Part shown: positions 1 through 12,432 of the stretch, in pieces | How the letters are laid out: each line of letters opens with the position of its first letter | Numbering within the stretch: the stretch's first letter is position 1 | Assembly: GCA_965198115.1 (NCBI GenBank) | Contig: OZ240241.1 | Span: 6,432,001 to 6,496,000, forward strand | Reading direction: 5' to 3' | Origin: Candidatus Latescibacterota bacterium | GTDB taxonomy: Bacteria > Latescibacterota > UBA2968 | Length of the DNA: 64,000 bases | Notes under the pieces: generated by a model | The model's database searches: none | What the model was told of the DNA's origin: nothing | Seen by the model: only the letters and a program-made list of their open reading frames with translations | Made by a program: the position numbers and the translations under genes

Positions 1-2
1 TG

Positions 3-599
3 GGTCGTCTTGCGTTCGGCCTGCGTGGGGCGCGTCGTGGCGGTGTGCAGGACGGCGACGTTGAACAGGCAGACTGTTCCGGCCTGGCCGTGGATGTCGA
101 CGATGCCACCGCGTTCGAGTTGAGCCTCCTTGTCCTCGAGAATGGGCTGATCGACGGATTCCGGCGAGAGGGAGAAACAGTGTGTCGATTCGCTCACGTC
201 CGCGAGGTAGACCATACTCTGGATGTAATCCACCCGATACGGATGTTCCGGCCAATGGGGGCGATCGCGATGCCAGCCGCGGTGCAACTCGCCATCATAG
301 GGTCCCATATGACGCGCACCGATCTCGCCGAAACAGATCGGTCCTCCCATCAGCTCGACAGCGGCCTCGAGAATCGGCGGATGACGCACGATTCGGTCGT
401 ATCCGGAGGACGTTACGAGGGCGTCGTAGTTCGCGGATTGGTGGTAGCCATAGCGGTGCCAACGATACGCGTAGGTTTCTTTGTCGGTGTCGAAGATCTC
501 AACGAAGTCTTCCAGTTCGGCCACGGAGATGAGGTCGGTGTGTACGATGTAGCCGTTCTGGCGGAAGAAATCGAGTTCGGTGGATGTGAGGATGGACAT
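3..599 (-). CDS. PhyH-family Fe(II)/2OG dioxygenase (3' end runs off the window)
   Basis: Manual minus-strand translation MSILTSTELDFFRQNGYIV...WHRD...MVYLADV. Absent from the ORF track because it has no stop in the window. Confidence 0.85.
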   Translation of the reverse strand, partial: MSILTSTELDFFRQNGYIVHTDLISVAELEDFVEIFDTDKETYAYRWHRYGYHQSANYDALVTSSGYDRIVRHPPILEAAVELMGGPICFGEIGARHMGPYDGELHRGWHRDRPHWPEHPYRVDYIQSMVYLADVSESTHCFSLSPESVDQPILEDKEAQLERGGIVDIHGQAGTVCLFNVAVLHTATTRPTQAERKTT

Positions 600-705
600 A
601 TAGGCAGAAGTTAAAATGAAAAAATTGGCGAGGACGAAGATCGGGATGTCGCTCCAAATGTCAAGCGATGCTGAGTGATCCACCGCAGAGCCGTAGGGAT
701 TGACT

Positions 706-826
706 TGTCTTCCCGGCATTGTTTCAAGCCGGGATCCATTCTCTGATTGGAAGATTCGTTACGCGCAAGCGCTTTCACGAAGATCAAAATGGGCCCGCCC
801 CGGCACAAAAGCGTACCGGGGTGACA
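706..826. repeat. Family A REP-doublet-like element, copy 1
   Basis: TGTCTTCCCGGC...GCCGGGATCCAT, spacer, ATGGGCCC...CGG...TACCGGGGTGACA. Same layout at 2618, 16155, 19830, 42618 and 51899. Confidence 0.8.
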
Positions 827-883
827 CTTGTCTTTGTGTTGTGGCTATGGAGGTTCCGACTACGAAGGATTAGGGAGATTGGA

Positions 884-1714
884 TCAAGTGATGGCGTCGA
901 TGACGGTCTGGTGGCCCCGATCTTCTGCGACGCTTCTTGGTGTGCGATCATCGGCGTCGGCCAGGGAGGGATCGGCGCCCTGCTTGATGAGTCGTTCGAC
1001 GATTCTGGGCAGGCCTTCCTCGGCGCAGAGGATGAGGGGGCGGTGCCGGGCGATTCCGTTGGGGTCTGCGCCCGCGTCCAGCAAGGCATCGACGAGGGAG
1101 AGGGATCTGGCGATTTTAATCGCGATGTCGAGAGGGGTCACACCTGCGATGTTCGGCTCGTACAGACGGGCACGCCGGCGTGGGATGTATAGCGCGGACA
1201 GTCTGCCCCGACCGAGTGCTTCCTGAAATGCGATTTCGCCGTCAGCGATCTGAGCTCGTAGGTTCTCACCACTGATCCACCAGCCCGGTAACTCGTACAT
1301 CACCGTAAACCCCATCCGCCTGTAAAGATGCTCGCAGAGACGGGAGGCGCTCGTGGCGATGTAGCGACAGCCGGCTTTTTCCACCTGTCGACAGACATGT
1401 TCCATTAACACGGTTCCGATGTCCTTTCCCCGCCCTCTTGGCCGGACGGCCACATCGTGGAGGGAGCCTATGCCGGTAGGGCCGGGCGTCAGCGCGAGCG
1501 TGGCGTGCCCTACAAGGCCGTGTCGGTCCCAGGCGGCGAAATAGTGGACACGATGCGGCGACTCGTCCATCATTCGGTTCATCGCCCTGATCATCGTTTC
1601 TGAATGGAAGTGGAGATCATCGCTCTCGACAGCTGGGACTTCCGAGGGTCTGGTGAACCGGATTCCACGAGCTGTCGAGGGGGCATCGTTCCGGTTCTTC
1701 ACGTCGAGCCACAT
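884..1714 (-). CDS. GNAT acetyltransferase with C-terminal ankyrin repeats, probably 5'-truncated
   Basis: GNAT motif VAVRPRGRGKDIG...LYRRMGF; ankyrin-like GVTPL..A, LLDAGADPN, LIKQGADP. The frame stays open upstream (PADLGARLVARGF) to a TAA at about 1830 with no ATG/GTG/TTG start. Confidence 0.75.
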   Translation of the reverse strand: MWLDVKNRNDAPSTARGIRFTRPSEVPAVESDDLHFHSETMIRAMNRMMDESPHRVHYFAAWDRHGLVGHATLALTPGPTGIGSLHDVAVRPRGRGKDIGTVLMEHVCRQVEKAGCRYIATSASRLCEHLYRRMGFTVMYELPGWWISGENLRAQIADGEIAFQEALGRGRLSALYIPRRRARLYEPNIAGVTPLDIAIKIARSLSLVDALLDAGADPNGIARHRPLILCAEEGLPRIVERLIKQGADPSLADADDRTPRSVAEDRGHQTVIDAIT

Positions 1715-1820
1715 CCCCCGATTGGCGTCGGGATACCAGCAGAAGCCACGTGCGACGAGGCGTGCACCAAGATCCGCGGGCCTGATTCGCGGTCTTGCCC
1801 CGAAGGCCAGGCGGGGGCCG

Positions 1821-2564
1821 TTGCTGGCTTACTACTGGACCCGCAACAGCGTCGATGCCGAAGACATCGTGCAGGAAGCGATGTTCCAGGCGATGGAGCA
1901 GCTCGAGACGCTCCGGGATCCGGATCGTTTCGCACCGTGGGTCCGCACGATCGCGACGAACCTGTGCCGTATGTGGCATCGCGAGCGGCACCGATCGGTT
2001 GGATCTCTCGACGATCCTGACCTGGTACCCGTCCGCGATGCATTACCCAGTGCGGAGCCCCAACCCTCGGATGTGGTTGAAGCCGGCGAACGGGATTGGC
2101 TGATCGGAGAGATGCTCGAGCGGTTGCCCAAGCAAGCTCGACTGACGGCGACGCTCTACTACCTGAGAGAGCTGTCCTACGACGAAATTGGGACGTTCTT
2201 GGACATTCCCTCAGCCACCGTGCGAGTGAGACTTCACAGGGCACGGAAACTGCTCAAAAAGGAGGCGATACAGATGTTCTCCGATTTCGCAGGTGACTCA
2301 CAGTCGACGCAGGTTGAACTGAAGGATTCGGAGGGATATCTCCACGTTCAGGAGAAGGGGTGGGGGTTTCTCAGACCAGAGCAAGGTGCAGAATCCGATC
2401 CGGATGACATCTATGTCTCACACAGCCAGATTAAACGGTTCGGGTTGAAAGAAGAGGATCGGATCGCCGGTCCGGCGCGGCCGCCCAGGGGAGAGGAAGG
2501 ATACTGGGCGCTCATCCGACTTGTGGAGGTGAATGGAGAACCCCATAAAACCAGTGAAAAGTGA
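1821..2564 (+). CDS. ECF sigma-70 factor (N-terminus apparently missing) fused to a Rho-type RNA-binding OB domain
   Basis: Sigma2 DAEDIVQEA...FAPWVRTIATN; sigma4 LSYDEIGTFLDIPSATVRVRLHRAR; C-terminus GWGFLR...PDDIYVSHSQIKRFGL...RPP...YWAL...VNG. Start uncertain: TTG at 1821, ORF open from 1653. Confidence 0.85.
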   Translation: MLAYYWTRNSVDAEDIVQEAMFQAMEQLETLRDPDRFAPWVRTIATNLCRMWHRERHRSVGSLDDPDLVPVRDALPSAEPQPSDVVEAGERDWLIGEMLERLPKQARLTATLYYLRELSYDEIGTFLDIPSATVRVRLHRARKLLKKEAIQMFSDFAGDSQSTQVELKDSEGYLHVQEKGWGFLRPEQGAESDPDDIYVSHSQIKRFGLKEEDRIAGPARPPRGEEGYWALIRLVEVNGEPHKTSEK

Positions 2565-2617
2565 AAAATGAAAATTTGCCTACTGCTTGTTGCAGGTCGT
2601 TTCCTCATCCAACCCGC

Positions 2618-2734
2618 TGTCATCCCGGCAGGCTGCAGGCCGGGATCTGTTTCCAGCCCTTATGTAAGGTGTTCTTCCTCAGATTCTTCGACCGACCAGG
2701 ATGGACCCCGGCCAGGATCCGAGCCGGGGTGACG
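2618..2734. repeat. Family A REP-doublet-like element, copy 2
   Basis: TGTCATCCCGGC..GCCGGGATC / ATGGACCCCGGC..GCCGGGGTGACG. Confidence 0.8.
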
Positions 2735-2817
2735 ATTCCATTCCAATCGTGAGGCATTGCTCTTGTCGTCCACGACGGTGATGGCGATTCTTAGTGCCGT
2801 CCTTAACGAGGAAAGCG

Positions 2818-5100
2818 ATGCAGATTCCGGTCGAAACTATTCACATTGCTGCTGCGGAAGCGGATGACGATCTCACATTCGCGGCGGTCTACGCGGCTGA
2901 CGAGATTGCGTATGTGAGCGGTGTTCGCCCGCACGTAACACCGCGATCGAACCCAGAAGGATTCTACACCCTTCGCGTCGACCGGCGCGATGGATTGCCC
3001 GCCGACAGCTATACGATTACGTCCGACGAAGCGTCACTCACGATATCCTCCTCATCCAGACGGGGCCTGCTGTTCGGGATCGGCCGGTTTCTTCGACTGA
3101 GTCCCTTCCGAGATGACTGTCTGGACATTCCTGCTGATCTGGATCTGCAGTTCTCGCCTTCCAGCCGTATTCGCGGCTACCAGATCGGCTACGGCCATCT
3201 GAGCAACAGTATGGATTCCTGGTCGGTCGCCCAGTTCGATCGATACATCCGGGACCTGGTTCTGTTCGGATGCAACGCGATCGAGATCGAGTACAAACCG
3301 GACCCCAGCCCTCATCACAAGCTTCCGTTCGACGAGATGACGGCCGAACTGTCCATTCTTGCAGCACGATACGACCTCGATTGCACCGTCTGGATTCCGA
3401 ACTGGGAAGACGAAGCCTACTATCTCGACACCGTGGCCTCCGGACGAGAGTTGGAGGATCGCGGACGCTTCTTTCACATTCTGCCAAAGATTTCCGCTAT
3501 CACCGTTCCCGGGGGAGATCCGGGCAAGCTGAGTCCGGATGTCCTGTTCCCCTGGGTTCAACGTCTCACCGAGACGCTGGCCTCCAGTGGTCATCCACCC
3601 CTGGCCTGGGTTTCCGCCCAGTGGATGAGAGCGGATACGGCGTGGTACGATGCCTTTTCCCGGCAGGCGAACAGGAATCCGGGTTGGTTGGCGGGTATCG
3701 TACACGGGCCGTGGACTCAGCTTTCGATACCGGAGCTGAGGGCCCGACTTCGCAGTGACCTGCCGATCCGGCGATACGACGATTTGACGCACGGCATATT
3801 CTGCCAATACCCGATTCCGGATTGGGATCTCGCCCACGCGATGACGTCCGGCCGCGAGTCGATCAATCCTCGACCAAAAGCCTACAAACATATCCACAAT
3901 CTTTACCACCGTGATACCGTTGGCAGCACGCCTCACACCACTGGCATCAACGCGGATATCAACACATTCGTGTGGTTGGACCAGGAGTGGGATCCAGATA
4001 CGGCTCCGCGTGACACGCTGAAAGATTACACACGCATCTTTCTATCCACGGACCTGGAAGATGAATTCGCGGACGGCGCGCTGGCACTCGAGGAGAACTG
4101 GGAAGGGGCCCTCGCGGCGAACGAAAGTGTAGAGGAGACGCTCGACCGGTGGAAACAGCTCGAGCAATCGGCCGATCCTGATGTGAACGCACACTGGCGA
4201 TTTCAATGCCCGTTGCTCAGGGTCTATTACGATGCGTCGGTGCGGAGAAGACTGGTTCGTGAAAGAAGGACAGCGGAACGGGCGGTCGAGGAACTCTCTT
4301 CGGATCGATCGAGGGAGGCCGTTCATCGGGCACTTACGTGGCTGGAGGAACGAACGACGGACTCAATCGAAATCGAGCTGCGCGAGAAATGCGTGAACCT
4401 ATCAAAATCGCTGTTCAGATCCGTTGGGCTCAAATCGTCTGTGGACGAACACGGCGCGGCACAGAAGGGCCGTGGGGCGTTTATGGACGCGATCGATGAG
4501 CCGCTGAACGACTCGAGATGGCTGATCAACCATCTCGAGGAGGCATTGGCGGCAGAATCCCCCTCGGAGAGATGGTCACGCGTTGGTGCGATTCTAGACC
4601 GGTCAGATTCCGGATATGGAGGGATCTACGACAACCTTGGAACACACGAGCAAATCGGTCGGCTGGTGAATCCTGTTGACGTGTCGGAAGACCCCGGGGG
4701 ACTGGCGGGTTCTCGATCGGCATTCGGGATCGCGTTGGAAGGGATGCTCCGATCGCAAACGGTTGAGATCAAGTCACACGACGGTTACCCGATCCCAAAG
4801 GCGTGGTTGACCTGTGTGGAGTCGATTTACGACACCCCGCTGATTCTGGCGTATGACGGATTGGAAGATGGGAGTGCTTATACCCTGCGCATCGTCTACT
4901 CGAGTAGGATCGGCAAGTTGGCCAAACTGGTCGCGAACGACCATGTTGTGCACGATCTGATCGCGACGGGGGATGAGCCTTTGAAAAAGTTCGAGATTCC
5001 GGCAGGGGTTGTGCGGGATGGAAAGCTCGAGCTTCGATGGACGGGTGGCGGGGAGCGTGGGGTACAGGTGGCTGAGCTGTGGATAACGCCCAAGCATTGA
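2818..5100 (+). CDS. Putative glycoside hydrolase-like protein (GH20/GH67-type N-terminal domain plus TIM-barrel-like core)
   Basis: DSYTI...RRGLLFGIGRFLR hexosaminidase-domain-2-like motif, then IRGYQIGY. GAGGAAAG precedes ATG 2818. Confidence 0.55.
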   Translation: MQIPVETIHIAAAEADDDLTFAAVYAADEIAYVSGVRPHVTPRSNPEGFYTLRVDRRDGLPADSYTITSDEASLTISSSSRRGLLFGIGRFLRLSPFRDDCLDIPADLDLQFSPSSRIRGYQIGYGHLSNSMDSWSVAQFDRYIRDLVLFGCNAIEIEYKPDPSPHHKLPFDEMTAELSILAARYDLDCTVWIPNWEDEAYYLDTVASGRELEDRGRFFHILPKISAITVPGGDPGKLSPDVLFPWVQRLTETLASSGHPPLAWVSAQWMRADTAWYDAFSRQANRNPGWLAGIVHGPWTQLSIPELRARLRSDLPIRRYDDLTHGIFCQYPIPDWDLAHAMTSGRESINPRPKAYKHIHNLYHRDTVGSTPHTTGINADINTFVWLDQEWDPDTAPRDTLKDYTRIFLSTDLEDEFADGALALEENWEGALAANESVEETLDRWKQLEQSADPDVNAHWRFQCPLLRVYYDASVRRRLVRERRTAERAVEELSSDRSREAVHRALTWLEERTTDSIEIELREKCVNLSKSLFRSVGLKSSVDEHGAAQKGRGAFMDAIDEPLNDSRWLINHLEEALAAESPSERWSRVGAILDRSDSGYGGIYDNLGTHEQIGRLVNPVDVSEDPGGLAGSRSAFGIALEGMLRSQTVEIKSHDGYPIPKAWLTCVESIYDTPLILAYDGLEDGSAYTLRIVYSSRIGKLAKLVANDHVVHDLIATGDEPLKKFEIPAGVVRDGKLELRWTGGGERGVQVAELWITPKH

Positions 5101-5132
5101 CCAGTGACAATTGACCGTTGACCAGTGACCAA
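5098..5132. repeat. Tandem heptamer (TGACNNN)x5
   Basis: TGACCAG TGACAAT TGACCGT TGACCAG TGACCAA. A similar array lies at 19745-19779. Confidence 0.8.
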
Positions 5133-5191
5133 AGCTCAGGCGATGCCTTGACACGGTTGCATCGGTACTCGTCCCTTCCACACAGCTCCTT

Positions 5192-7210
5192 TCACTTCGG
5201 AACGCGCTCGACGATTTCCCCCGGCCAACGGTTAAGCGGTTTGGGGCTTCCGGATAACGGACTCCGGCCAACGGCTTTTCTTGGTTTGGCGTACCAACGG
5301 CGTAGCACGGCTTCGGCGGGTTTGTTCTGTGGGGTGAAGTTTTCGTCATAGATGCCACCGGTGAAGGTATGGTTGGGGAACCATTTCCAGATGTAGGCGC
5401 CGGCGAACCAGGGTTTGTCCCAGAAGGCGGCGAAGAAGGCTTCGTAGGCGTTGACCTGTGTTTGCAGGTCTTCGTAATATGGTGTGGTGTTGTCGGCGTT
5501 CCATTCCCAGGGTTGGATGGCGGCGTCAGTTGCGCTGTGGTAGCCGATCTCGGTCATGAGGACAGGCTTGTTGTGGCGTCGATGGACCCGTTCGATCGAC
5601 GGGATATGACGGTCCCAACCGGCGAGGAGCTGTTTGACGGTGGGGCTGTGGTTGTCGACGAGCGGGAAGTAAGCCTGAATGCCGATGTAATCGACCGCGT
5701 CCCAGAATGGCACGTCCTCGAATTCGTCGTGCCAGTTTGCGGCGTAGACAAGAGAGCCGTCGTAGACGGTCCTGATTTCCTGGATGAGGTCCCGCCACTC
5801 GCGTTCTCGGTGGACCGTGCCGTGCAACTCGGTTCCGATACACAGCGCCTCGATGTCGGATCGGGCTGCGAGTTCGGCGTAGTGCATCATAAAAGCTTCG
5901 TAACTCGCGAACCACGCCTTCCAGTCCTCTTCGCTTTCCATCGCGATTTCGCCGCGCCAGCGTCCCTCGCGTACCTGACTCAGCCAGACGTGAGGCTTTA
6001 ACAGGGTACGGATGCCGAATTGTCGGGCCGTTCGTGCCGTTGCCCCGACGCCGCGATCGCTTTCACCCCACCAGCCGGCATCGGGACGGTAGCGGATCTC
6101 CGTATCGGCCACCCTTCGCTGCCACCCGAAGGGTGTCTGTGCGATCCAATTGACGTTGTTCTTCACGAGCGGGATGAAAGCGTCGTCACTCATTCCCTCA
6201 CGGCCGGCCACCCAGCTGACGGCTCGGTGGAAACCATCGGGGGGCGATAAAGGACGGTGGTAGTCGGCCAGATCGTGCGGCGAAACCGTCAGCGTGTCGG
6301 AATGCGTCTCTTGACCGTTGGTGATGACAACGTCTGCGAGACTGGATCGAGCAACCCTCTCCCCGATGACCGTCAACTTGTAAGCTCCGACGGGCAAATC
6401 TACCCGATAGGCACCGCGTTTAGCCGAGGTGACGAAGGATTGGTTCAGCCGCTCGGCCTGAGCGATGCGAACAAGTGCCGGCGGATAGGACCCGGTCACT
6501 GTCCAGCGGACCTGTCCGGTCAGCTGGCCCATTTGCTGATCTTTCCCGATCAACAGAAGATCGCCTCGCGCCCTCGCCAGGGTCGCTTTCCGGCGGCCTT
6601 CCCCCCAGATGACTCGGCCAGGACGACGGTCCCCCTCATCCGCATCGTAGACTGCCAGTCCCAACCCAAGCACACTCCCATCATCGATCTGGAGATCAGG
6701 GTCGATGGCGTCGAGTTCGAAAGCCCATTCATAGATGCGTCTGTCTTCACTCAAGGTGATGGCGACACTCGCGTGCTCCCATTCTATTTCCTTGGCTTGA
6801 CTGTCCGTTGCCCGACGCGTCGATTCACCATAAAGACCGTACTGACGGCCCGGCGAGATGGGCGTGTGGTTGACGTCGATGACGATCTCGCAGGCATCCT
6901 GGCGATACCTGCGCCGGTCGCGGTCCTGCGTGGAGACGAAGTTGTCGTCTTCGACTTCGATCAGGAGATACAGGCGTGGTGGCGAGAGGGAATAACCCGA
7001 TCTGAGGATCACGGAAAAATTGCCCCGGCTGCCTGGCGCGGGCACGATCGTAGACTCATAGGAATCGGCAGGCCAATCGCTTGCGTGGCCATCCACTGTG
7101 ATCGGAGCGATCGGTCGAGTGAGCGATAGTGCGCCATTGTGAGCGATGGCGTCGATGCACGAGGAAAAGGTCAGTGCAAGAAGGGCGAGGATTTCAGCAG
7201 TTCGTTTCAC
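5192..7210 (-). CDS. Secreted GH113-like hydrolase with an N-terminal CBM9-like sugar-binding domain
   Basis: GTG 7210 overlaps the GNAT stop; signal peptide; ITVDG..SDW and LYLLIEVEDD (CBM9-like); LKPH.W, CIGTEL, YAANW, IGIQAYFPL, TEIGY, FTPQNKPA (GH113-like). Confidence 0.75.
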   Translation of the reverse strand: MKRTAEILALLALTFSSCIDAIAHNGALSLTRPIAPITVDGHASDWPADSYESTIVPAPGSRGNFSVILRSGYSLSPPRLYLLIEVEDDNFVSTQDRDRRRYRQDACEIVIDVNHTPISPGRQYGLYGESTRRATDSQAKEIEWEHASVAITLSEDRRIYEWAFELDAIDPDLQIDDGSVLGLGLAVYDADEGDRRPGRVIWGEGRRKATLARARGDLLLIGKDQQMGQLTGQVRWTVTGSYPPALVRIAQAERLNQSFVTSAKRGAYRVDLPVGAYKLTVIGERVARSSLADVVITNGQETHSDTLTVSPHDLADYHRPLSPPDGFHRAVSWVAGREGMSDDAFIPLVKNNVNWIAQTPFGWQRRVADTEIRYRPDAGWWGESDRGVGATARTARQFGIRTLLKPHVWLSQVREGRWRGEIAMESEEDWKAWFASYEAFMMHYAELAARSDIEALCIGTELHGTVHREREWRDLIQEIRTVYDGSLVYAANWHDEFEDVPFWDAVDYIGIQAYFPLVDNHSPTVKQLLAGWDRHIPSIERVHRRHNKPVLMTEIGYHSATDAAIQPWEWNADNTTPYYEDLQTQVNAYEAFFAAFWDKPWFAGAYIWKWFPNHTFTGGIYDENFTPQNKPAEAVLRRWYAKPRKAVGRSPLSGSPKPLNRWPGEIVERVPK

Positions 7211-7665
7211 AGGCGCTTGATGAAGTAGTAAGCATCGTGCTTCGGGTGGGGATGGATCGTGTAGCCCATTGAGAGTTTCAATCCGTAGTTTTCGGTGCTG
7301 CCGGTCGGGCTGAGCGACCGAATCTGATAGCAGTCTCGTTCGCAACAGATTTCGATGGCGCGATTCTGTAAACGCCGGCCCCAGCCCTGTCGACGATGCT
7401 CGGGCAGGACTCCAAAGGCGATGACGAAGCCTTCCGTCAACGACTCGCCGTTCCGTGTGACCGGCGAATGGCCCTCCTCGCTGCCGATGGTCTGAATGTA
7501 GAAACGATGGAAGCCGACGCACGTTTCTTTGGAGAAGGCACCCAGAAGAATCGCCTCAGCGATGTAGTCAGGACGCTGATCGATATACTTCGCCTGATTC
7601 ATCTGCGCAGCGATGGATCGAACGGCATCGATTTCGGCTTCGGATGTGATCATTCGGATGGGCAT
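7207..7665 (-). CDS. GNAT acetyltransferase
   Basis: FGVLPEHRRQGWGRRL motif A. Confidence 0.8.
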   Translation of the reverse strand: MPIRMITSEAEIDAVRSIAAQMNQAKYIDQRPDYIAEAILLGAFSKETCVGFHRFYIQTIGSEEGHSPVTRNGESLTEGFVIAFGVLPEHRRQGWGRRLQNRAIEICCERDCYQIRSLSPTGSTENYGLKLSMGYTIHPHPKHDAYYFIKRL

Positions 7666-7773
7666 CTACTCTTTGACATCTTTTACACCGTTCAGGTTGC
7701 GAGGTCAGTAAACTTCGACGGTCTTCAGCACCAACGGCGCGTCATCGAGAATCGAGTATCTGGAAGATCGCCT

Positions 7774-8280
7774 TCAATAGAGCCATTTCGAGTAAGTAAC
7801 GTCTGCGTCTTTCATTACGTCGTACAACCAGACCATACGGTCGAGGAACCACATCTTGCCGATGTAGGTGAGAGCCAATCCTGACGCTGTCATCCACGGA
7901 TGGTGCTCGACGAAGCCGTAGATGAGGAGGATCATCCCGGTGACGGAGAGCGCGTTCAGGCAGGCGATGACGCGATTGAAATGGGTGGGGATCGGGATCG
8001 CCTTGCGATTCAGCCAGACGCGTTCGCCAAGGACGGCCTTCGACGACCACCGGTCGGTCGTTGCCGGTTTGGGAAAGGCACGTGGGTTAATCCAGATCCA
8101 GACACCCAGCGCGGTCAGGACGTACCAGAATGTGACACCTAACCAGTCGTTATACCAGACGGCTATCGCGATGAGTCCGAGCGTGACGAATCGAGTCCAG
8201 ACACTCCAGGGATTGGCGTGGCGCGCCCAGACCTCATCCGTCATTCGGAAAGCGGATGCGAGATGGTTGGAGAGGGCCAT
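7774..8280 (-). CDS. Membrane protein (DUF6653-like)
   Basis: WARHANPWSVWTRF, NPRAFPKP, KMWFLDRMV; several TM segments. Confidence 0.65.
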   Translation of the reverse strand: MALSNHLASAFRMTDEVWARHANPWSVWTRFVTLGLIAIAVWYNDWLGVTFWYVLTALGVWIWINPRAFPKPATTDRWSSKAVLGERVWLNRKAIPIPTHFNRVIACLNALSVTGMILLIYGFVEHHPWMTASGLALTYIGKMWFLDRMVWLYDVMKDADVTYSKWLY

Positions 8281-8397
8281 TGGCTCTTGTGGTTCGTGAT
8301 CCCGAGACTTCCCTCACGTGCGTTCGAGGCAGGCTCGCGCTCACTCTGTCGGGTTATGGCTTGAGAATACCGCGAGCTGTCGTACGACGTGATCCCG

Positions 8398-9399
8398 TCA
8401 TCTCAGGTCGACTTCTCCCTGCTTCCCATCGCGTACGGCGAGGTAGACGGCCTCGGTGACGCGCATCGTGTTGACGCAGTCGGCCATACTCGCAACGGGC
8501 TCACGGTCTTCGCGGATGGCCTTCGCGAATTCGATGAGGGTACCTGCATCGCCCGTCAACTCACCGCTGCGCTGATCGCTGTAGTTTTCTGTGAAGGTGT
8601 TTTCTTCCTGCCCGTAGTGCCGAACGCCCCAAAGACCGTCGATGACGACGTAGGTGCCCTGGCCGGTGATCTCGATACGGTCGTAATTACGCCACCAGAT
8701 CCGCTGGCTATTGAGCTGTAAAGAGCCGACGGCTCCGTTCTCGAAGGTGGCCGCCCCCGCGATCGCCACACGGCCCTCAAGTTCCTGGTGCTGGATGTTG
8801 AGGGTCGTGAATTCGCCGCAGAGATGACGGCACAGGTCCAGGTGATGGAGCGCAAAGTCCATCACGTAGGCGTGTACCGGCGTGTCGTAGCCCATTCCCC
8901 TCACTTCGTTGTAGGCGCCGCTGCAGAATGAGCACAGGATTTGCGAGATCGGGCCGAATTCCGGGGATTGTATGATCTCGAGTGCCTGCGTGACACCGTA
9001 GCTGAAGCGGCGCTGGACGTTGACCATCAGGATCCGATTGCTTTTGCGAGCGAGGTCGGCGAGGGCGTTGGCCTCTCTCGTGTCCAAAGCGGGGGGCTTG
9101 GGTACGAGTACGTGAAGGCCAGCTTCGAGACAATCGGCGACGATCGGCCCACGGGGTTTTGGATGCGTCTGGACGATGGCGGCTTCGAGCGATTCGTTCT
9201 CCAGCATCTGACGGTAGTCGGTGTAGGGTTTGCCGCCGAATGTGTGCGAGACGTGGGTGAGGCGTTCCTGATCGACGTCGCACACGGCGATCGGTTGGAG
9301 TGGCGCGAAATGGAGCGAGGGGTAGATCTGCCACGTGGCCATCGAACCGGCGCCGATGAAGCCGAGACGTATTGGGAGATCGTTTGATGCGATGGTCAT
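8398..9399 (-). CDS. Gfo/Idh/MocA oxidoreductase
   Basis: LGFIGAG; GLHVLVPKP (variant of EKP); H..D motif. Confidence 0.85.
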   Translation of the reverse strand: MTIASNDLPIRLGFIGAGSMATWQIYPSLHFAPLQPIAVCDVDQERLTHVSHTFGGKPYTDYRQMLENESLEAAIVQTHPKPRGPIVADCLEAGLHVLVPKPPALDTREANALADLARKSNRILMVNVQRRFSYGVTQALEIIQSPEFGPISQILCSFCSGAYNEVRGMGYDTPVHAYVMDFALHHLDLCRHLCGEFTTLNIQHQELEGRVAIAGAATFENGAVGSLQLNSQRIWWRNYDRIEITGQGTYVVIDGLWGVRHYGQEENTFTENYSDQRSGELTGDAGTLIEFAKAIREDREPVASMADCVNTMRVTEAVYLAVRDGKQGEVDLR

Positions 9400-9424
9400 T
9401 GCTCAGGTATCAAGAAGAACTTTG

Positions 9425-9580
9425 GACCACGGAACACACGGAATACACGGACGGGGAGATCGACAAGGGAGGTGGCCCTGTTCGGGGATGACGCTCGGTG
9501 GCAGCTCCGCGGACGGGAAAAGATGACCACGAAAAACACGAAAGGGTGGCTGTGAAGACATCCGAGACCCTATTCGGGGA
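9425..9580 (+). repeat. Two tandem copies of a bipartite motif (CACGRA nonamer tract plus GRCCCTRTTCGGGGA)
   Basis: Copies at 9425-9488 and 9525-9580; others at 25595, 30646 and 57271. Confidence 0.7.
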
Positions 9581-9696
9581 CGGGATCGGGTGGAGACCCT
9601 ACGTTCGACGGGCTGGGGACCACGAGAAACCTGTCTGCGCAGAGCTTCTGCGGGCAGGCAGGAAGTAACGAACAGTGCTGTGTGTGGCCTAACGTC

Positions 9697-10113
9697 TCAG
9701 GAGAGGCCGACGCCGGGCCACTGATCGCTGCTGGCAGTGACGTCGATGGTGATTCCGTCGGGGTCCTCGACTTTGAAGGCGCCCTCTTCGAGGTTGTTGA
9801 CGTCCACGGGCACATTTCCGCCGAGGCCGTCTGAGAAGATTTCGTAACCCATATCGAGCAGGCGTTGAGCGGCCTGTTCGAGGTTGGGTACGCAGATGCC
9901 GATGTGAAGGTAGTCGAGCATTCCGCTGACGTGGTCGGGTCGTTCGGGACCGTTGTGCTGGAAGACGCGGAAGTTGTGATGACCATCGCTGAGGTCGTAG
10001 GATTGATCCCCTGGCTCGTTGACGACGGGGAGTTCGAGACCGTCACGCCAGAACCGGATGGTTTTGTCGATGTCGGTTGCGCGGACACCGATGTGAACGA
10101 GTGTTCCTGACAT
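9697..10113 (-). CDS. VOC/glyoxalase family protein
   Basis: HIGVRATDI..TIRFW; HIGICV; DPDGITID; SD AGGAGG. Confidence 0.85.
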   Translation of the reverse strand: MSGTLVHIGVRATDIDKTIRFWRDGLELPVVNEPGDQSYDLSDGHHNFRVFQHNGPERPDHVSGMLDYLHIGICVPNLEQAAQRLLDMGYEIFSDGLGGNVPVDVNNLEEGAFKVEDPDGITIDVTASSDQWPGVGLS

Positions 10114-10235
10114 TTTAGACCTCCTGTGTTTGGTGGTTCCCACCTCCGCGGAAGGGCGGCTTCCTCTCGACTTCGCTCGAGATAGGCTCCGGGTAGGTGG
10201 TGTTCAGGAAGAACATAAACAGATAGGCTCGAGGA

Positions 10236-11699
10236 CTAAAGGTAAACGTGAACGGCGATGTCATCGATGAATCCTGGCAGCTGGACCCATAGCTCGCCCT
10301 GCCGGATCTCGAACTTCTCGGTGCCAAGCGATCCCGATGCCGGGGAGAATGTTTCCACCGTATACTCTCCATCGGCGACATTCAGCCCGGCGACTCGAAG
10401 CTCCTGATAATCATAGTGCCGTCCTTGGACATCGGTTGCGGAAGAACAGTAGACGACAGCCTCCTGTGTTGAAGACAAGACGTACTGGTGATCGCCTGGC
10501 CCGGTCGTGATGTTTCCTCCGAACCAGAGGCTGCCGTAATCGATCAGACTGTTCCAGAACTCACGCAAGTGGGGCGCGGTTTCCTCAAAATTGTTGACGC
10601 CTTGTGGGTCGTAGTTCACGAAGTAACCGAATCCATCCTTGTCGCCCTTCGTGTAGAAATCCATCTGCTGGCATTTCGCCATCGTGAACTTCCAGAAATA
10701 CTTCCGCATTGCCACGGGATCGGCCTTGTCGTAGCGGTATTTCAACCTATTGTCGTCCCAGGCTTCCTGCGGTATGTAGGCTTTCCGATATTGTCGCCGC
10801 CACGCTACCGCGTTTTCCACGGTGTGGTGTTTGCCATAGATGATCGTGTTGAAGACGGGGTGTGCGTAAATCCGGTCCTGTTCATCGTCGGACAGGCCAC
10901 CCGTGTCGAAACCGATGATGAACTGTTTGGATGTCCGTTCGGCCCAGTGGGATCGCATCGTTTCCGCCATTTCAACGATCCACTGGCGGGTCTTCGGCCA
11001 GTCCCGGCGGTGCTCGGCGATTTCGTGAACCAGATCGAAGTAGACATTGTCCAGGTCGAACGTCGTGTCGATCACTTTTTCGAAATACGCCTTTTGTGCA
11101 CCGACGAGCTCCACTTTCCCGTCGGTCACCGAGTGGTAGATCGCGTATCTGTTTTCGAGATCGGGGCCTAAATGCGTGGTGAAGTCGTTGCAGTTGACCT
11201 GGGGGTTGAAGAAATGCCCTGGCCAGTTGATCTCGCCGTTCGTTCCCGGGGATGTGTCTGGCGCGCGCAATTGCCATCCATTCCACACCAGCAAGTGGAC
11301 GATGATCCCCCTGCTCTGCAGGAATTCCAGCTGTTCTCGAAATCGTGACCAGAATCGCTCGTCGAACTGGGCAAGATCGAATCTGCGGCTACAGGGTTCA
11401 GTTTCCCGGTATGGGAAGAGACATTTGGCGACATCACCGCCGTTCATCTCAGTCGTCTTTACGATGTGTTTCCAGCTGAGCGGGAGATAGGCTCGGATGT
11501 GGTTCATTCCGTGATCGGCCAACCACGTTGCCCACCGTTTGTAGTCGTAGGCATCCTCGTTCAAGTAAAACGTGACGTCCGCCATTCCGCCAAAGGACAG
11601 CAGCGGCTTCCCATTGTGCAGGAAGTGTGCGCGCTCGGTTCCTGCTTCGGTGATTTCCAGTCCGGCTCGGGCCTGTTGTATCATTTTGTCTGCATCCAA
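10236..11699 (-). CDS. Putative clan-A glycoside hydrolase-like TIM-barrel protein with a C-terminal beta domain
   Basis: LADHGMNHIR, FDL..FDERFW.R, NVYFDLVHE; DUF4038/DUF6298-like. Confidence 0.5.
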   Translation of the reverse strand: MDADKMIQQARAGLEITEAGTERAHFLHNGKPLLSFGGMADVTFYLNEDAYDYKRWATWLADHGMNHIRAYLPLSWKHIVKTTEMNGGDVAKCLFPYRETEPCSRRFDLAQFDERFWSRFREQLEFLQSRGIIVHLLVWNGWQLRAPDTSPGTNGEINWPGHFFNPQVNCNDFTTHLGPDLENRYAIYHSVTDGKVELVGAQKAYFEKVIDTTFDLDNVYFDLVHEIAEHRRDWPKTRQWIVEMAETMRSHWAERTSKQFIIGFDTGGLSDDEQDRIYAHPVFNTIIYGKHHTVENAVAWRRQYRKAYIPQEAWDDNRLKYRYDKADPVAMRKYFWKFTMAKCQQMDFYTKGDKDGFGYFVNYDPQGVNNFEETAPHLREFWNSLIDYGSLWFGGNITTGPGDHQYVLSSTQEAVVYCSSATDVQGRHYDYQELRVAGLNVADGEYTVETFSPASGSLGTEKFEIRQGELWVQLPGFIDDIAVHVYL

Positions 11700-11723
11700 A
11701 GTGGAGTCAGAGAACGGGCTGAC

Positions 11724-12432
11724 TCATCGAAAGCCTTTCCGAGCCCGTATACACACGAAAGATGGGCGCGTCGAGAGGCGGTCATAAGTCTCGGGATGCG
11801 CTGCTCTGCAAGCTTCGACAGGACGGGGTTCCGCCAGTGTGTCCAGTCGAAATCCACTCTTGATGAGCGGATTCAGAATGGCGTCAATCGGCCGTCGATA
11901 ATAGGGGATGACGGTGTCAAAGCTCGGGAATCGCTCCTCGATGAGTTCAGTTTCGAAATAGCTGCCACCGTGTTTGGTGTAGTCGTGTGCGGGGTGGCCG
12001 AGGGAAAACAGGAGCGTGCCACCCACTTCGAGCACCCTGGAAAACTCGGCGAATACGGAGGCGAGAGCCTCGACGTGGTCCAACGCAAGCGCACAGACGA
12101 CGATGTCGACGCACTCGCCATCGAGGAAGTCCAGGGGGTCGATCAAGTTGTGAACTCTGACTTCGGCTTTTCCATCGAGCCGATCGGCGGCGGTCGCGAA
12201 ATCTTCGGGCTGGCGTCGAACGAAACGACGTTCACTCCTTGGTTCACCAACCACTCCGAGTAGTATCCCGAACCGCATCCAGGGCTTGAAGCCCCTTCAC
12301 GTCGGGCATCAATTCGACCATACACGGTCGTTCGCAGTAGGCGTTGTGTGCCGACTGCTGCGCGTGCGGTTCGTATCAATCCGCGATCTGATCGTATGAT
12401 TCGACGGTGCGCTGGTACGTGCGAGTGTCCAT
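11724..12432 (-). pseudogene. Class I SAM methyltransferase pseudogene
   Basis: ATG 12432 MDTRTYQ..., in-frame TGA at 12376-12378, frameshift inside LDA/GCGSG (about 12280), second frameshift near 12200; intact C-terminal part. Confidence 0.8.

What the first reader, a model, noticed from the sequence alone, without database searches (positions are those of the whole stretch)
1821..2564. ECF sigma factor fused to a stand-alone Rho RNA-binding domain
Seen: sigma2 and sigma4 motifs continue in frame into EGYLHVQEKGWGFLRPEQGAESDPDDIYVSHSQIKRFGLKEEDRIAGPARPPRGEEGYWALIRLVEVNGEP (about 2331-2546), and the protein ends shortly after. Known: this aligns by eye with the primary RNA-binding OB fold of termination factor Rho (E. 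coli GFGFLR...PDDIYVSPSQIRRFNL...RPP..GERYFAL..VN). The GFLR, DIY and E-x-Y residues that bind pyrimidine-C dinucleotides are kept, while the Rho N-terminal helix bundle and ATPase are absent. Inference: an RNA-sensing or RNA-tethered sigma factor. It could be regulated by an RNA rather than an anti-sigma (none is adjacent), or it could mask rut sites on its own transcripts as an antiterminator. I do not recall this as a characterised ECF extension.
Basis: partly seen in the sequence, partly recalled or inferred. Interest (0 to 1): 0.88.

Follow-up and report, generated by a model that had tools for sequence, protein, structure and literature searches.

The report
Sigma factor with Rho RNA-binding domain
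A recurring gene family, not described in the papers searched, joins a stress-type sigma factor to the RNA-gripping domain of the terminator Rho, so C-rich RNA likely controls the sigma factor, but the copy in this window has lost its front end and is probably dead.

Summary
The fusion is real: sigma regions 2 and 4 run in frame into a Rho RNA-binding domain (Pfam E 3.7e-21). It recurs: 38 of 367 stored proteins carry both parts, with one to three RNA-binding domains, some also with Clp-N. Their sigma cores are not one clade. RNA-pocket residues are kept selectively, and dN/dS is about 0.06. (1) This copy is truncated: a deletion removed about 33 N-terminal residues, the promoter and the 5' end of the divergent neighbour. 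The source sample's contigs hold the junction. Three of four copies in 168 phylum genomes are broken. (2) A conserved internal Shine-Dalgarno plus ATG (2259-2276) probably yields a free 96-residue RNA-binding protein; the whole sigma radiation shares this feature. Best reading: an RNA-sensing regulatory extension standing in for an anti-sigma; antitermination is a weaker rival. No paper found describes it. This scan found the fusion before in another genome (e1-6578313), and the internal start many times.

The parts
1824..2564 (+). 5'-truncated ECF sigma / Rho RNA-binding-domain fusion gene (remnant; about 33 N-terminal codons and the promoter missing)
   Evidence: 82% and 75% identical to intact P0002 and P0003
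1824..1994 (+). remnant of sigma region 2 (Pfam positions 12-70 of 71)
   Evidence: helices 5-13 and most of 17-39 of the intact model are absent
2103..2261 (+). sigma region 4
2259..2276 (+). internal Shine-Dalgarno (AAGGAGG, 2259-2265) and in-frame ATG (2274)
2274..2564 (+). predicted free 96-residue product: short linker plus Rho-type RNA-binding domain
   Evidence: inferred; no protein data
2331..2543 (+). Rho primary RNA-binding OB-fold domain; six of six scored pocket positions kept
1787..1823 (.). deletion junction joining two divergent genes inside their coding sequences
   Evidence: continuous in Logan contigs of runs X1 and X2
884..1823 (-). 5'-truncated GNAT-ankyrin gene (lacks roughly 86-100 N-terminal residues)
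2794..5100 (+). downstream 768-residue ORF, weakly GH20b-like; syntenic in L065; no link to the sigma shown

Best explanation
The window holds the 5'-deleted, probably inactive remnant of a recurring gene in which an ECF sigma factor is fused to a Rho-type RNA-binding domain; in intact relatives that domain likely binds C-rich single-stranded RNA and is predicted to control the sigma factor in place of an anti-sigma. Shown: the fusion, its recurrence, purifying selection, selective retention of the RNA pocket, the deletion, and a DNA-level conserved internal start. Inferred: the intact gene makes two proteins, the fusion and a free 96-residue RNA binder. Ribosome-free C-rich RNA, first of all the gene's own long C>G-skewed leader leaving the polymerase next to sigma4, would capture the fusion and damp its activity (negative feedback). 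The free domain would titrate that RNA and set the threshold. Tandem copies would add avidity.
For: Domain identity. Recurrence: 38 of 367 stored proteins have both parts, from several sources. Pocket: in 23 de-replicated fusions without Clp parts, scoring the first domain copy, R66/D78/E108 are kept in 83-87%, Y80 in 96% and Y110 in 87%, against a mean of 46% for the 17 other polar positions invariant in Rho. The best copy scores 6/6 in 19 of 26 proteins without Clp-N (this count includes the fragment P0140; P0132 and three truncated copies were left out) and in 1 of 9 with Clp-N. dN/dS window against L065: 0.058 for the domain, 0.10 for sigma (dS near saturation). F62 and Y80 are needed for RNA binding in E. 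coli Rho (PMC4150792, PMC1950744, passages). Internal start: AAGGAGG or CGGAGG 8 nt before the ATG in 5 of 5 fusion loci. In 43 de-replicated extension genes, junction Glu is GAG in 40 of 45 against 1133 of 2002 elsewhere, and an SD precedes 30 of 40 junction Mets against 23 of 385 other Mets; the Met is kept in 33 of 38 fusions. A promoter matrix trained on 11 non-fusion loci scores 18.5 and 16.6 upstream of the two intact loci (shuffle maximum 13.3) and 4.0 in the window. Their leaders are 274 and 131 nt with C>G skew +0.25 and +0.24, while all 16 non-fusion loci above the shuffle maximum (10 of them training loci) have skew of 0.0 or less. Sigma4 lies at the RNA exit channel (PMC7948647, passages). 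Truncation.
Against: No binding or transcription data. The leader signal rests on two intact loci plus one pseudogene and was noticed before it was tested. Ranks among 72 control ECF upstream regions were 4, 2 and 15 for skew and 0, 15 and 15 for YC count. The L065 leader folds slightly better than shuffles (z -1.56), and part of it may be coding (longer N-termini are called in P0374 and P0379). The AF2 model treats sigma2, sigma4 and the OB fold as separate domains (pTM 0.39), so no contact explains a switch. The Rho pocket also binds C-rich ssDNA (PMC12133298, passages). The internal start is common to the whole radiation whatever the cargo, so it says nothing specific about RNA. The gene is rare and often broken: 4 of 168 phylum genomes, 1 intact; none in 176 genomes of the Poribacteria handle's phylum. 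R66, D78, E108 and Y110 as RNA contacts are recalled, not found in the papers read.
Confidence: 0.42

Rival explanations
1. Antitermination: the domain rides on the polymerase with its sigma, or acts as the free 96-residue protein, and masks rut sites so that Rho cannot end the regulon's transcripts.
For: Same pocket as Rho, intact; tethered next to the RNA exit channel (PMC7948647, passages); C>G-skewed leaders; tandem copies in 11 of the 38 fusions with an RNA-binding-domain-only extension; the host has an intact Rho to oppose.
Against: A Rho subunit covers about five nucleotides, and rut sites are 60-90 nt bound by a hexamer (PMC12360218, passages). An ECF sigma is largely released on entering elongation (sigmaE in PMC12781872, abstract and section list). 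No conserved long operon follows the gene.
Confidence: 0.17
2. The domain binds single-stranded DNA (C-rich bases in the open promoter bubble or other ssDNA), acting as an extra promoter-recognition or ssDNA-sensing module.
For: The Rho primary site binds dC-rich ssDNA (PMC12133298, passages); pocket conservation cannot tell RNA from DNA.
Against: The domain follows sigma4, far from the -10 bubble (general knowledge of holoenzyme geometry). The promoter box upstream of intact fusions is of the same type as in non-fusion relatives.
Confidence: 0.1
3. Cargo shuffling without a special coupling: this sigma radiation swaps C-terminal cargos freely, and the useful product is mainly the free RNA-binding domain made from the internal start, with the fusion as a by-product of a lost stop codon.
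For: Sigma cores with the domain are not one clade (AU p 5.8e-50, 19 against 26 rows), and their nearest kin carry FHIPEP-like and other tails. Internal SD plus ATG in most extension genes. Repeated loss (3 of 4 phylum copies broken). No predicted interdomain contact.
Against: Repeated independent joining of this domain to sigma cores, and expansion to 2-3 copies within fusions, suggest the pairing is selected. No stand-alone gene for the domain turned up among the extra matches in 168 genomes, though Clp-N fusions without sigma exist (P0090, P0112).
Confidence: 0.18
4. The domain is a protein-docking module (for Rho, a Rof-like Sm protein, NusA/NusG or the sigma core itself) rather than a nucleic-acid sensor.
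For: Rof binds over the Rho primary site (PMC12360218, passages). Clp-N-bearing members have a decayed pocket yet keep the fold.
Against: In members without Clp-N the pocket residues are kept while other Rho-invariant polar residues are lost.
Confidence: 0.1
5. The window copy is still functional, as a shortened sigma started at TTG 1821 or as a source of the free domain.
For: No stop or frameshift in the remaining 247 codons; the strong internal SD is intact (-12.0 kcal/mol); AF2 still folds the remnant (pLDDT 83).
Against: One helix and most of a second helix of sigma2 are gone; no promoter box; the divergent neighbour is cut at the same point; SD pairing at 1821 is only -6.3. A recent deletion also explains the open frames.
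Confidence: 0.15

Closest known systems
[quoted passage not shown]
   Same: sigma2 + sigma4 core, a fused C-terminal module, no recognised adjacent anti-sigma, and a promoter-like box upstream of the intact genes (reviews 10.1101/2019.12.11.873521 and PMC8999054, passages)
   Different: The extension is a nucleic-acid-binding OB fold taken from Rho; 'RNA-binding' does not occur in the main texts searched. It carries an internal translation start, occurs in 1-3 copies, and sits on several unrelated sigma cores.
Transcription termination factor Rho (primary RNA-binding domain, PF07497)
   Same: fold, RNP-like motifs and pocket residues; 51% identical to the host's own Rho domain
   Different: No N-terminal helix bundle and no ATPase, so no Rho hexamer or translocation. 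Most fused copies, including this one, branch apart from the Rho sequences sampled (short alignment, quick tree). PMC11347177 names a 'Rho-like RNA-binding domain only' class and tandem domains inside Rho, but 'sigma' has 0 hits in its text and supplement.
dCas12f-sigmaE RNA-guided transcription (10.1101/2025.06.10.658880; abstract and outline seen)
   Same: an ECF sigma whose activity is tied to an RNA
   Different: There a separate Cas protein with a guide RNA recruits the sigma to DNA; here the RNA-binding module is part of the sigma, and no guide RNA or Rfam match was found.

Membership tests
ECF (group 4) sigma factor | sigma2 and sigma4 domains, without sigma3 | tested here: met
   Pfam r2 and r4_2, TIGR02937 86.9 bits over cut-off 42.9; no r3 match
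ECF (group 4) sigma factor | complete sigma2 domain (this copy) | tested here: not met
   Pfam r2 starts at position 12 of 71; 33 residues missing against P0005 and L031
ECF (group 4) sigma factor | complete sigma2 domain (intact relatives) | tested here: met
   r2 matched from position 1 in P0122, P0123, P0124, P0129, P0143
ECF (group 4) sigma factor | binds core polymerase and directs transcription | not testable with these tools
   needs in vitro transcription
numbered ECF group (Casas-Pastor classification) | score over a group HMM | not testable with these tools
   group HMMs not available; no NCBIfam equivalog or subfamily cut-off reached among the 25 shown
ECF with regulatory C-terminal extension | in-frame extension over 50 residues after sigma4 | tested here: met
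   about 98 residues
ECF with regulatory C-terminal extension | no anti-sigma gene next to it | tested here: inconclusive
   window neighbours scanned in Pfam are PhyH, GNAT-ankyrin and GH-like; neighbours of L031, L034 and L065 were judged by eye only; only two intact loci have DNA context
ECF with regulatory C-terminal extension | the extension regulates sigma activity | not testable with these tools
Rho termination factor | primary RNA-binding OB domain | tested here: met
Rho termination factor | N-terminal helix bundle and RecA-like ATPase | tested here: not met
   no such Pfam match; stop follows the domain; the host's full Rho lies elsewhere
Rho primary RNA-binding site | pocket residues 62, 66, 78, 80, 108, 110 | tested here: met
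   6 of 6 in the window; 62 and 80 supported by papers read, the other four recalled

The most novel reading that the evidence does not exclude
A class of sigma factors that read RNA directly. The Rho-derived domain, held at the RNA exit channel, catches the C-rich leader of the transcript its own holoenzyme is making, and the same gene releases a free Rho-domain decoy from an internal start. Together they would couple initiation by an alternative sigma to Rho-dependent termination of its regulon.
Probability: 0.25. Interest if true: 0.87.

Novelty: new variant of a known kind. Interest (0 to 1): 0.6.

Why it matters
The ECF extensions described in the reviews searched sense metals, small molecules or proteins, or are cut off. 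A sigma factor with a built-in, conserved Rho RNA pocket would make RNA itself the signal and could link initiation to termination in one gene. It is easy to test: small soluble proteins, a predicted promoter and leader, and clear pocket mutants. The practical correction matters too: experiments should use an intact relative (L031, P0002, P0279, or the tandem P0121), not this window's truncated copy.

Tried and rejected
Misassembly or one-off chimera: rejected. The fusion recurs, and the whole stretch including the junction lies in one Logan contig with no differences in runs X1 and X2 (one sample, possibly the source, so not independent). Frameshifted or displaced N-terminus: the missing piece is in no upstream frame and nowhere else in the genome. 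Second or split rho gene: rejected; no ATPase follows, and an intact rho lies at genome 2.67 Mb. Recent copy of the host's own Rho: not supported; the window's domain groups with other fused copies (quick tree, 79 columns, careful search unfinished). Single origin of the fusion: rejected. Partner non-coding RNA: no Rfam match in L031, L065, L034 or L068 and only one chance-level match in window 1-12000. Leader structure: neither leader stands out from shuffles (z +0.75 and -1.56). Expression: no RNA holder listed. The sigma-70 promoter and terminator scan gave nothing beyond chance. Complex prediction of sigma core with the free C-terminal product: tool not available, nothing folded. Longer fusions (915-2610 residues): none with the domain among 4 hits (weak search). 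Paper searches for the pocket residue list found nothing; the search gave the papers for F62 and Y80.

Full report
OBSERVATION. The frame ending at 2564 matches Sigma70_r2, Sigma70_r4_2 and Rho_RNA_bind, the last at E 3.7e-21 over model positions 2-71 of 73. It passes the NCBIfam ECF superfamily cut-off. The domain aligns to E. coli Rho 52-123 by sequence. A model of an intact relative matches both ECF and Rho structures by fold. The genome (8.43 Mb, one contig) has a complete rho elsewhere, whose domain is 51% identical. I infer Latescibacterota from a phylum of 168 genomes and from NCBI labels on related proteins (Latescibacterota, Gemmatimonadota, Poribacteria); the record of L031, same class, is itself titled Gemmatimonas.

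THIS COPY IS TRUNCATED. Intact relatives at 82%, 75% and 50% identity have an ordinary ECF N-terminus. The window matches them only from codon 1824, and DNA similarity to the syntenic locus L065 starts at 1825. The 33 missing residues cover the first helix and most of the second in the intact model. Upstream lies the opposite-strand frame of a GNAT-ankyrin gene that runs to 1828 and matches its homolog in G058 only from that protein's residue 101. One deletion therefore removed both 5' ends and the DNA between them. L065 keeps the flanking PhyH and GH-like genes, an intact sigma start and a different divergent gene. A promoter matrix built from 11 non-fusion ECF loci scores 18.5 (L031) and 16.6 (L065) but 4.0 in the window and 7.6 in the pseudogene L034, against a shuffle maximum of 13.3. 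The junction lies in single Logan contigs of two runs of one sample with no differences. I put about 80% on this copy being inactive as a sigma factor. Both remnants are free of stops, so the deletion is probably recent.

THE FAMILY. Three word-index searches, one full HMMER search and two contig scans gave 367 stored proteins, of which 38 have both a sigma core and the domain by my own profiles (some are near-duplicates or fragments). P0316 is a further case by precomputed Pfam. Layouts: one domain alone; two or three in tandem; domain plus Clp-N; domain plus ClpX zinc finger; bifunctional-nuclease domain plus Clp-N plus two domains. Two proteins join Clp-N to the domain without a sigma (P0090 scanned; P0112 by precomputed Pfam). 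In the host's phylum 6 of 168 genomes have two domain matches. Two are Rho itself (adjacent pieces in G038; two equal-scoring full-length frames in G069). Four are sigma fusions: G054 intact (same contig as L031), G000 truncated, G051 with a frameshift and a stop, G158 with an internal deletion and a stop. None was found in 176 genomes of the Poribacteria handle's phylum. The first-look filters may miss diverged copies. On a tree of 224 sigma cores the fusions fall in several places among cores with other tails; an AU test on a hand-picked subset of 45 (19 fusions, 26 others) rejects one clade (p 5.8e-50). The domain is thus a mobile cargo in a sigma radiation with many interchangeable extensions.

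IS THE POCKET SELECTED? Numbering follows the alignment. F62 and Y80 are shown to be needed for RNA binding in E. coli Rho (PMC4150792, PMC1950744, PMC12133298; passages). R66, D78, E108 and Y110 are recalled from the Rho crystal structures and were not found in the papers read. Over all 54 fused copies R66 is kept in 47, D78 in 43 and Y80 in 44; E108 and Y110 are each kept in 38 of 50. To avoid choosing on the trait, I took the first copy of 23 fusions under 80% identity, leaving out ten Clp-bearing and three truncated proteins. The polar pocket residues are kept in 83-87%, against a mean of 46% for the 17 other polar residues invariant in Rho; three of these (D95, R102, N120) are kept as well or better. 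Clp-N-bearing members mostly have decayed pockets (1 of 9 at 6/6 against 19 of 26; the groups are kin, so the p of 3e-4 overstates). dN/dS against L065 is 0.058 for the domain and 0.10 for sigma, with dS near saturation.

INTERNAL START. A strong Shine-Dalgarno at 2259 sits 8 nt before an in-frame ATG at 2274, and the same holds in all five fusion loci for which the junction was scored. Of 65 ECF genes with extensions of 60 residues or more, 61 have the Met and 55 an SD. After de-replication to 43 genes, junction Glu is GAG in 40 of 45 against 1133 of 2002 elsewhere, Lys is AAG in 19 of 21 against 59 of 99, and an SD precedes 30 of 40 junction Mets against 23 of 385 others. The Met is present in 33 of 38 fusions. 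A free 96-residue protein is therefore likely, though unproven. It is a property of the radiation, not of this cargo.

LEADERS. The two intact loci have their promoter box 301 and 158 nt before the sigma core, with C>G skew +0.25 and +0.24. The 16 non-fusion loci above the shuffle maximum have it 46-168 nt before, with skew of 0.0 or less (10 of the 16 trained the matrix, and short leaders are G-rich because of the SD). In fixed 170-nt windows the three fusion loci were equalled or exceeded by 4, 2 and 15 of 72 controls. One leader folds like its shuffles, the other slightly better. This is a post hoc hint from two or three related loci.

MECHANISM. I commit to an RNA-sensing extension (0.42): the domain binds ribosome-free C-rich RNA, first its own leader near the exit channel where sigma4 sits (PMC7948647, passages), and damps the sigma, with the free domain as a buffer. 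Only the anatomy and its conservation are shown. Rivals: cargo shuffling with the free domain as the main product (0.18), antitermination (0.17), ssDNA binding (0.10), protein docking (0.10).

WHAT IS KNOWN. Full-text searches for the combination found nothing; two searches listed ECF-extension papers and a Rho survey. Term searches in 10.1101/2019.12.11.873521, PMC7671368 and PMC8999054 (passages) found no 'RNA-binding' and no termination-factor Rho. PMC11347177 (passages, and one supplement searched by term) names stand-alone Rho-like RNA-binding domains and has no 'sigma'. I did not read the supplements of the ECF classification (bioRxiv files closed; PMC7826278 not opened), where group descriptions could mention it. 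PMC12360218 was read in passages; PMC12781872 and 10.1101/2025.06.10.658880 as abstract and outline. This scan reported a related sigma + Sm-like + Rho-domain gene in another genome (e1-6578313).

VERDICT. A real and apparently unpublished architecture, conserved at the RNA pocket: a new variant of ECF factors with regulatory extensions. Interest 0.6, held down because this copy is a remnant, the gene is rare and often lost, and it is one of many cargos of the radiation.

Noticed in passing
window 884-1823 (-): GNAT-ankyrin gene cut at its 5' end by the same deletion; one homolog in 167 other phylum genomes (G058).
   Followed up: yes
P0090, P0112: Proteins without sigma that join a short N-terminal part to a Clp-N domain with a Rho RNA-binding domain inserted in its second half.
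   Followed up: partly
P0123, P0124, P0143, P0272, P0275-P0278: Sigma + Rho domain + Clp-N fusions in which the RNA pocket has mostly decayed while the fold is kept; possibly a shift to a protein or phospho-arginine input.
   Followed up: partly
P0125: 811-residue sigma with bifunctional-nuclease domain, split Clp-N, two Rho domains and, by eye, two Sm-like (RimP-C-like) segments flanking the first Rho domain.
   Followed up: no
L073 (G158:C67, around the match at 2731-2910): Fourth phylum copy, broken by an internal deletion whose left end lies within a few codons of where the window's remnant begins.
   Followed up: partly
L040, L042, L047, L075, L078, L085, L092, L031, L065: A shared ECF promoter-like box (-35 near GTAAC/GTAAG/GTTAC, -10 near GCATCT) upstream of many sigma genes of this radiation in both phyla, regardless of cargo.
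   Followed up: partly
window 706-747, 770-830, 2617-2735, 5093-5134: Short intergenic palindromic and tandem repeats; the first three have many copies across the genome, and the last matches other contigs in the laid runs and L065.
   Followed up: no
P0126, P0134, P0135, P0169, P0247: Close sigma relatives whose tail matches part of the FHIPEP (FlhA cytoplasmic) family.
   Followed up: no
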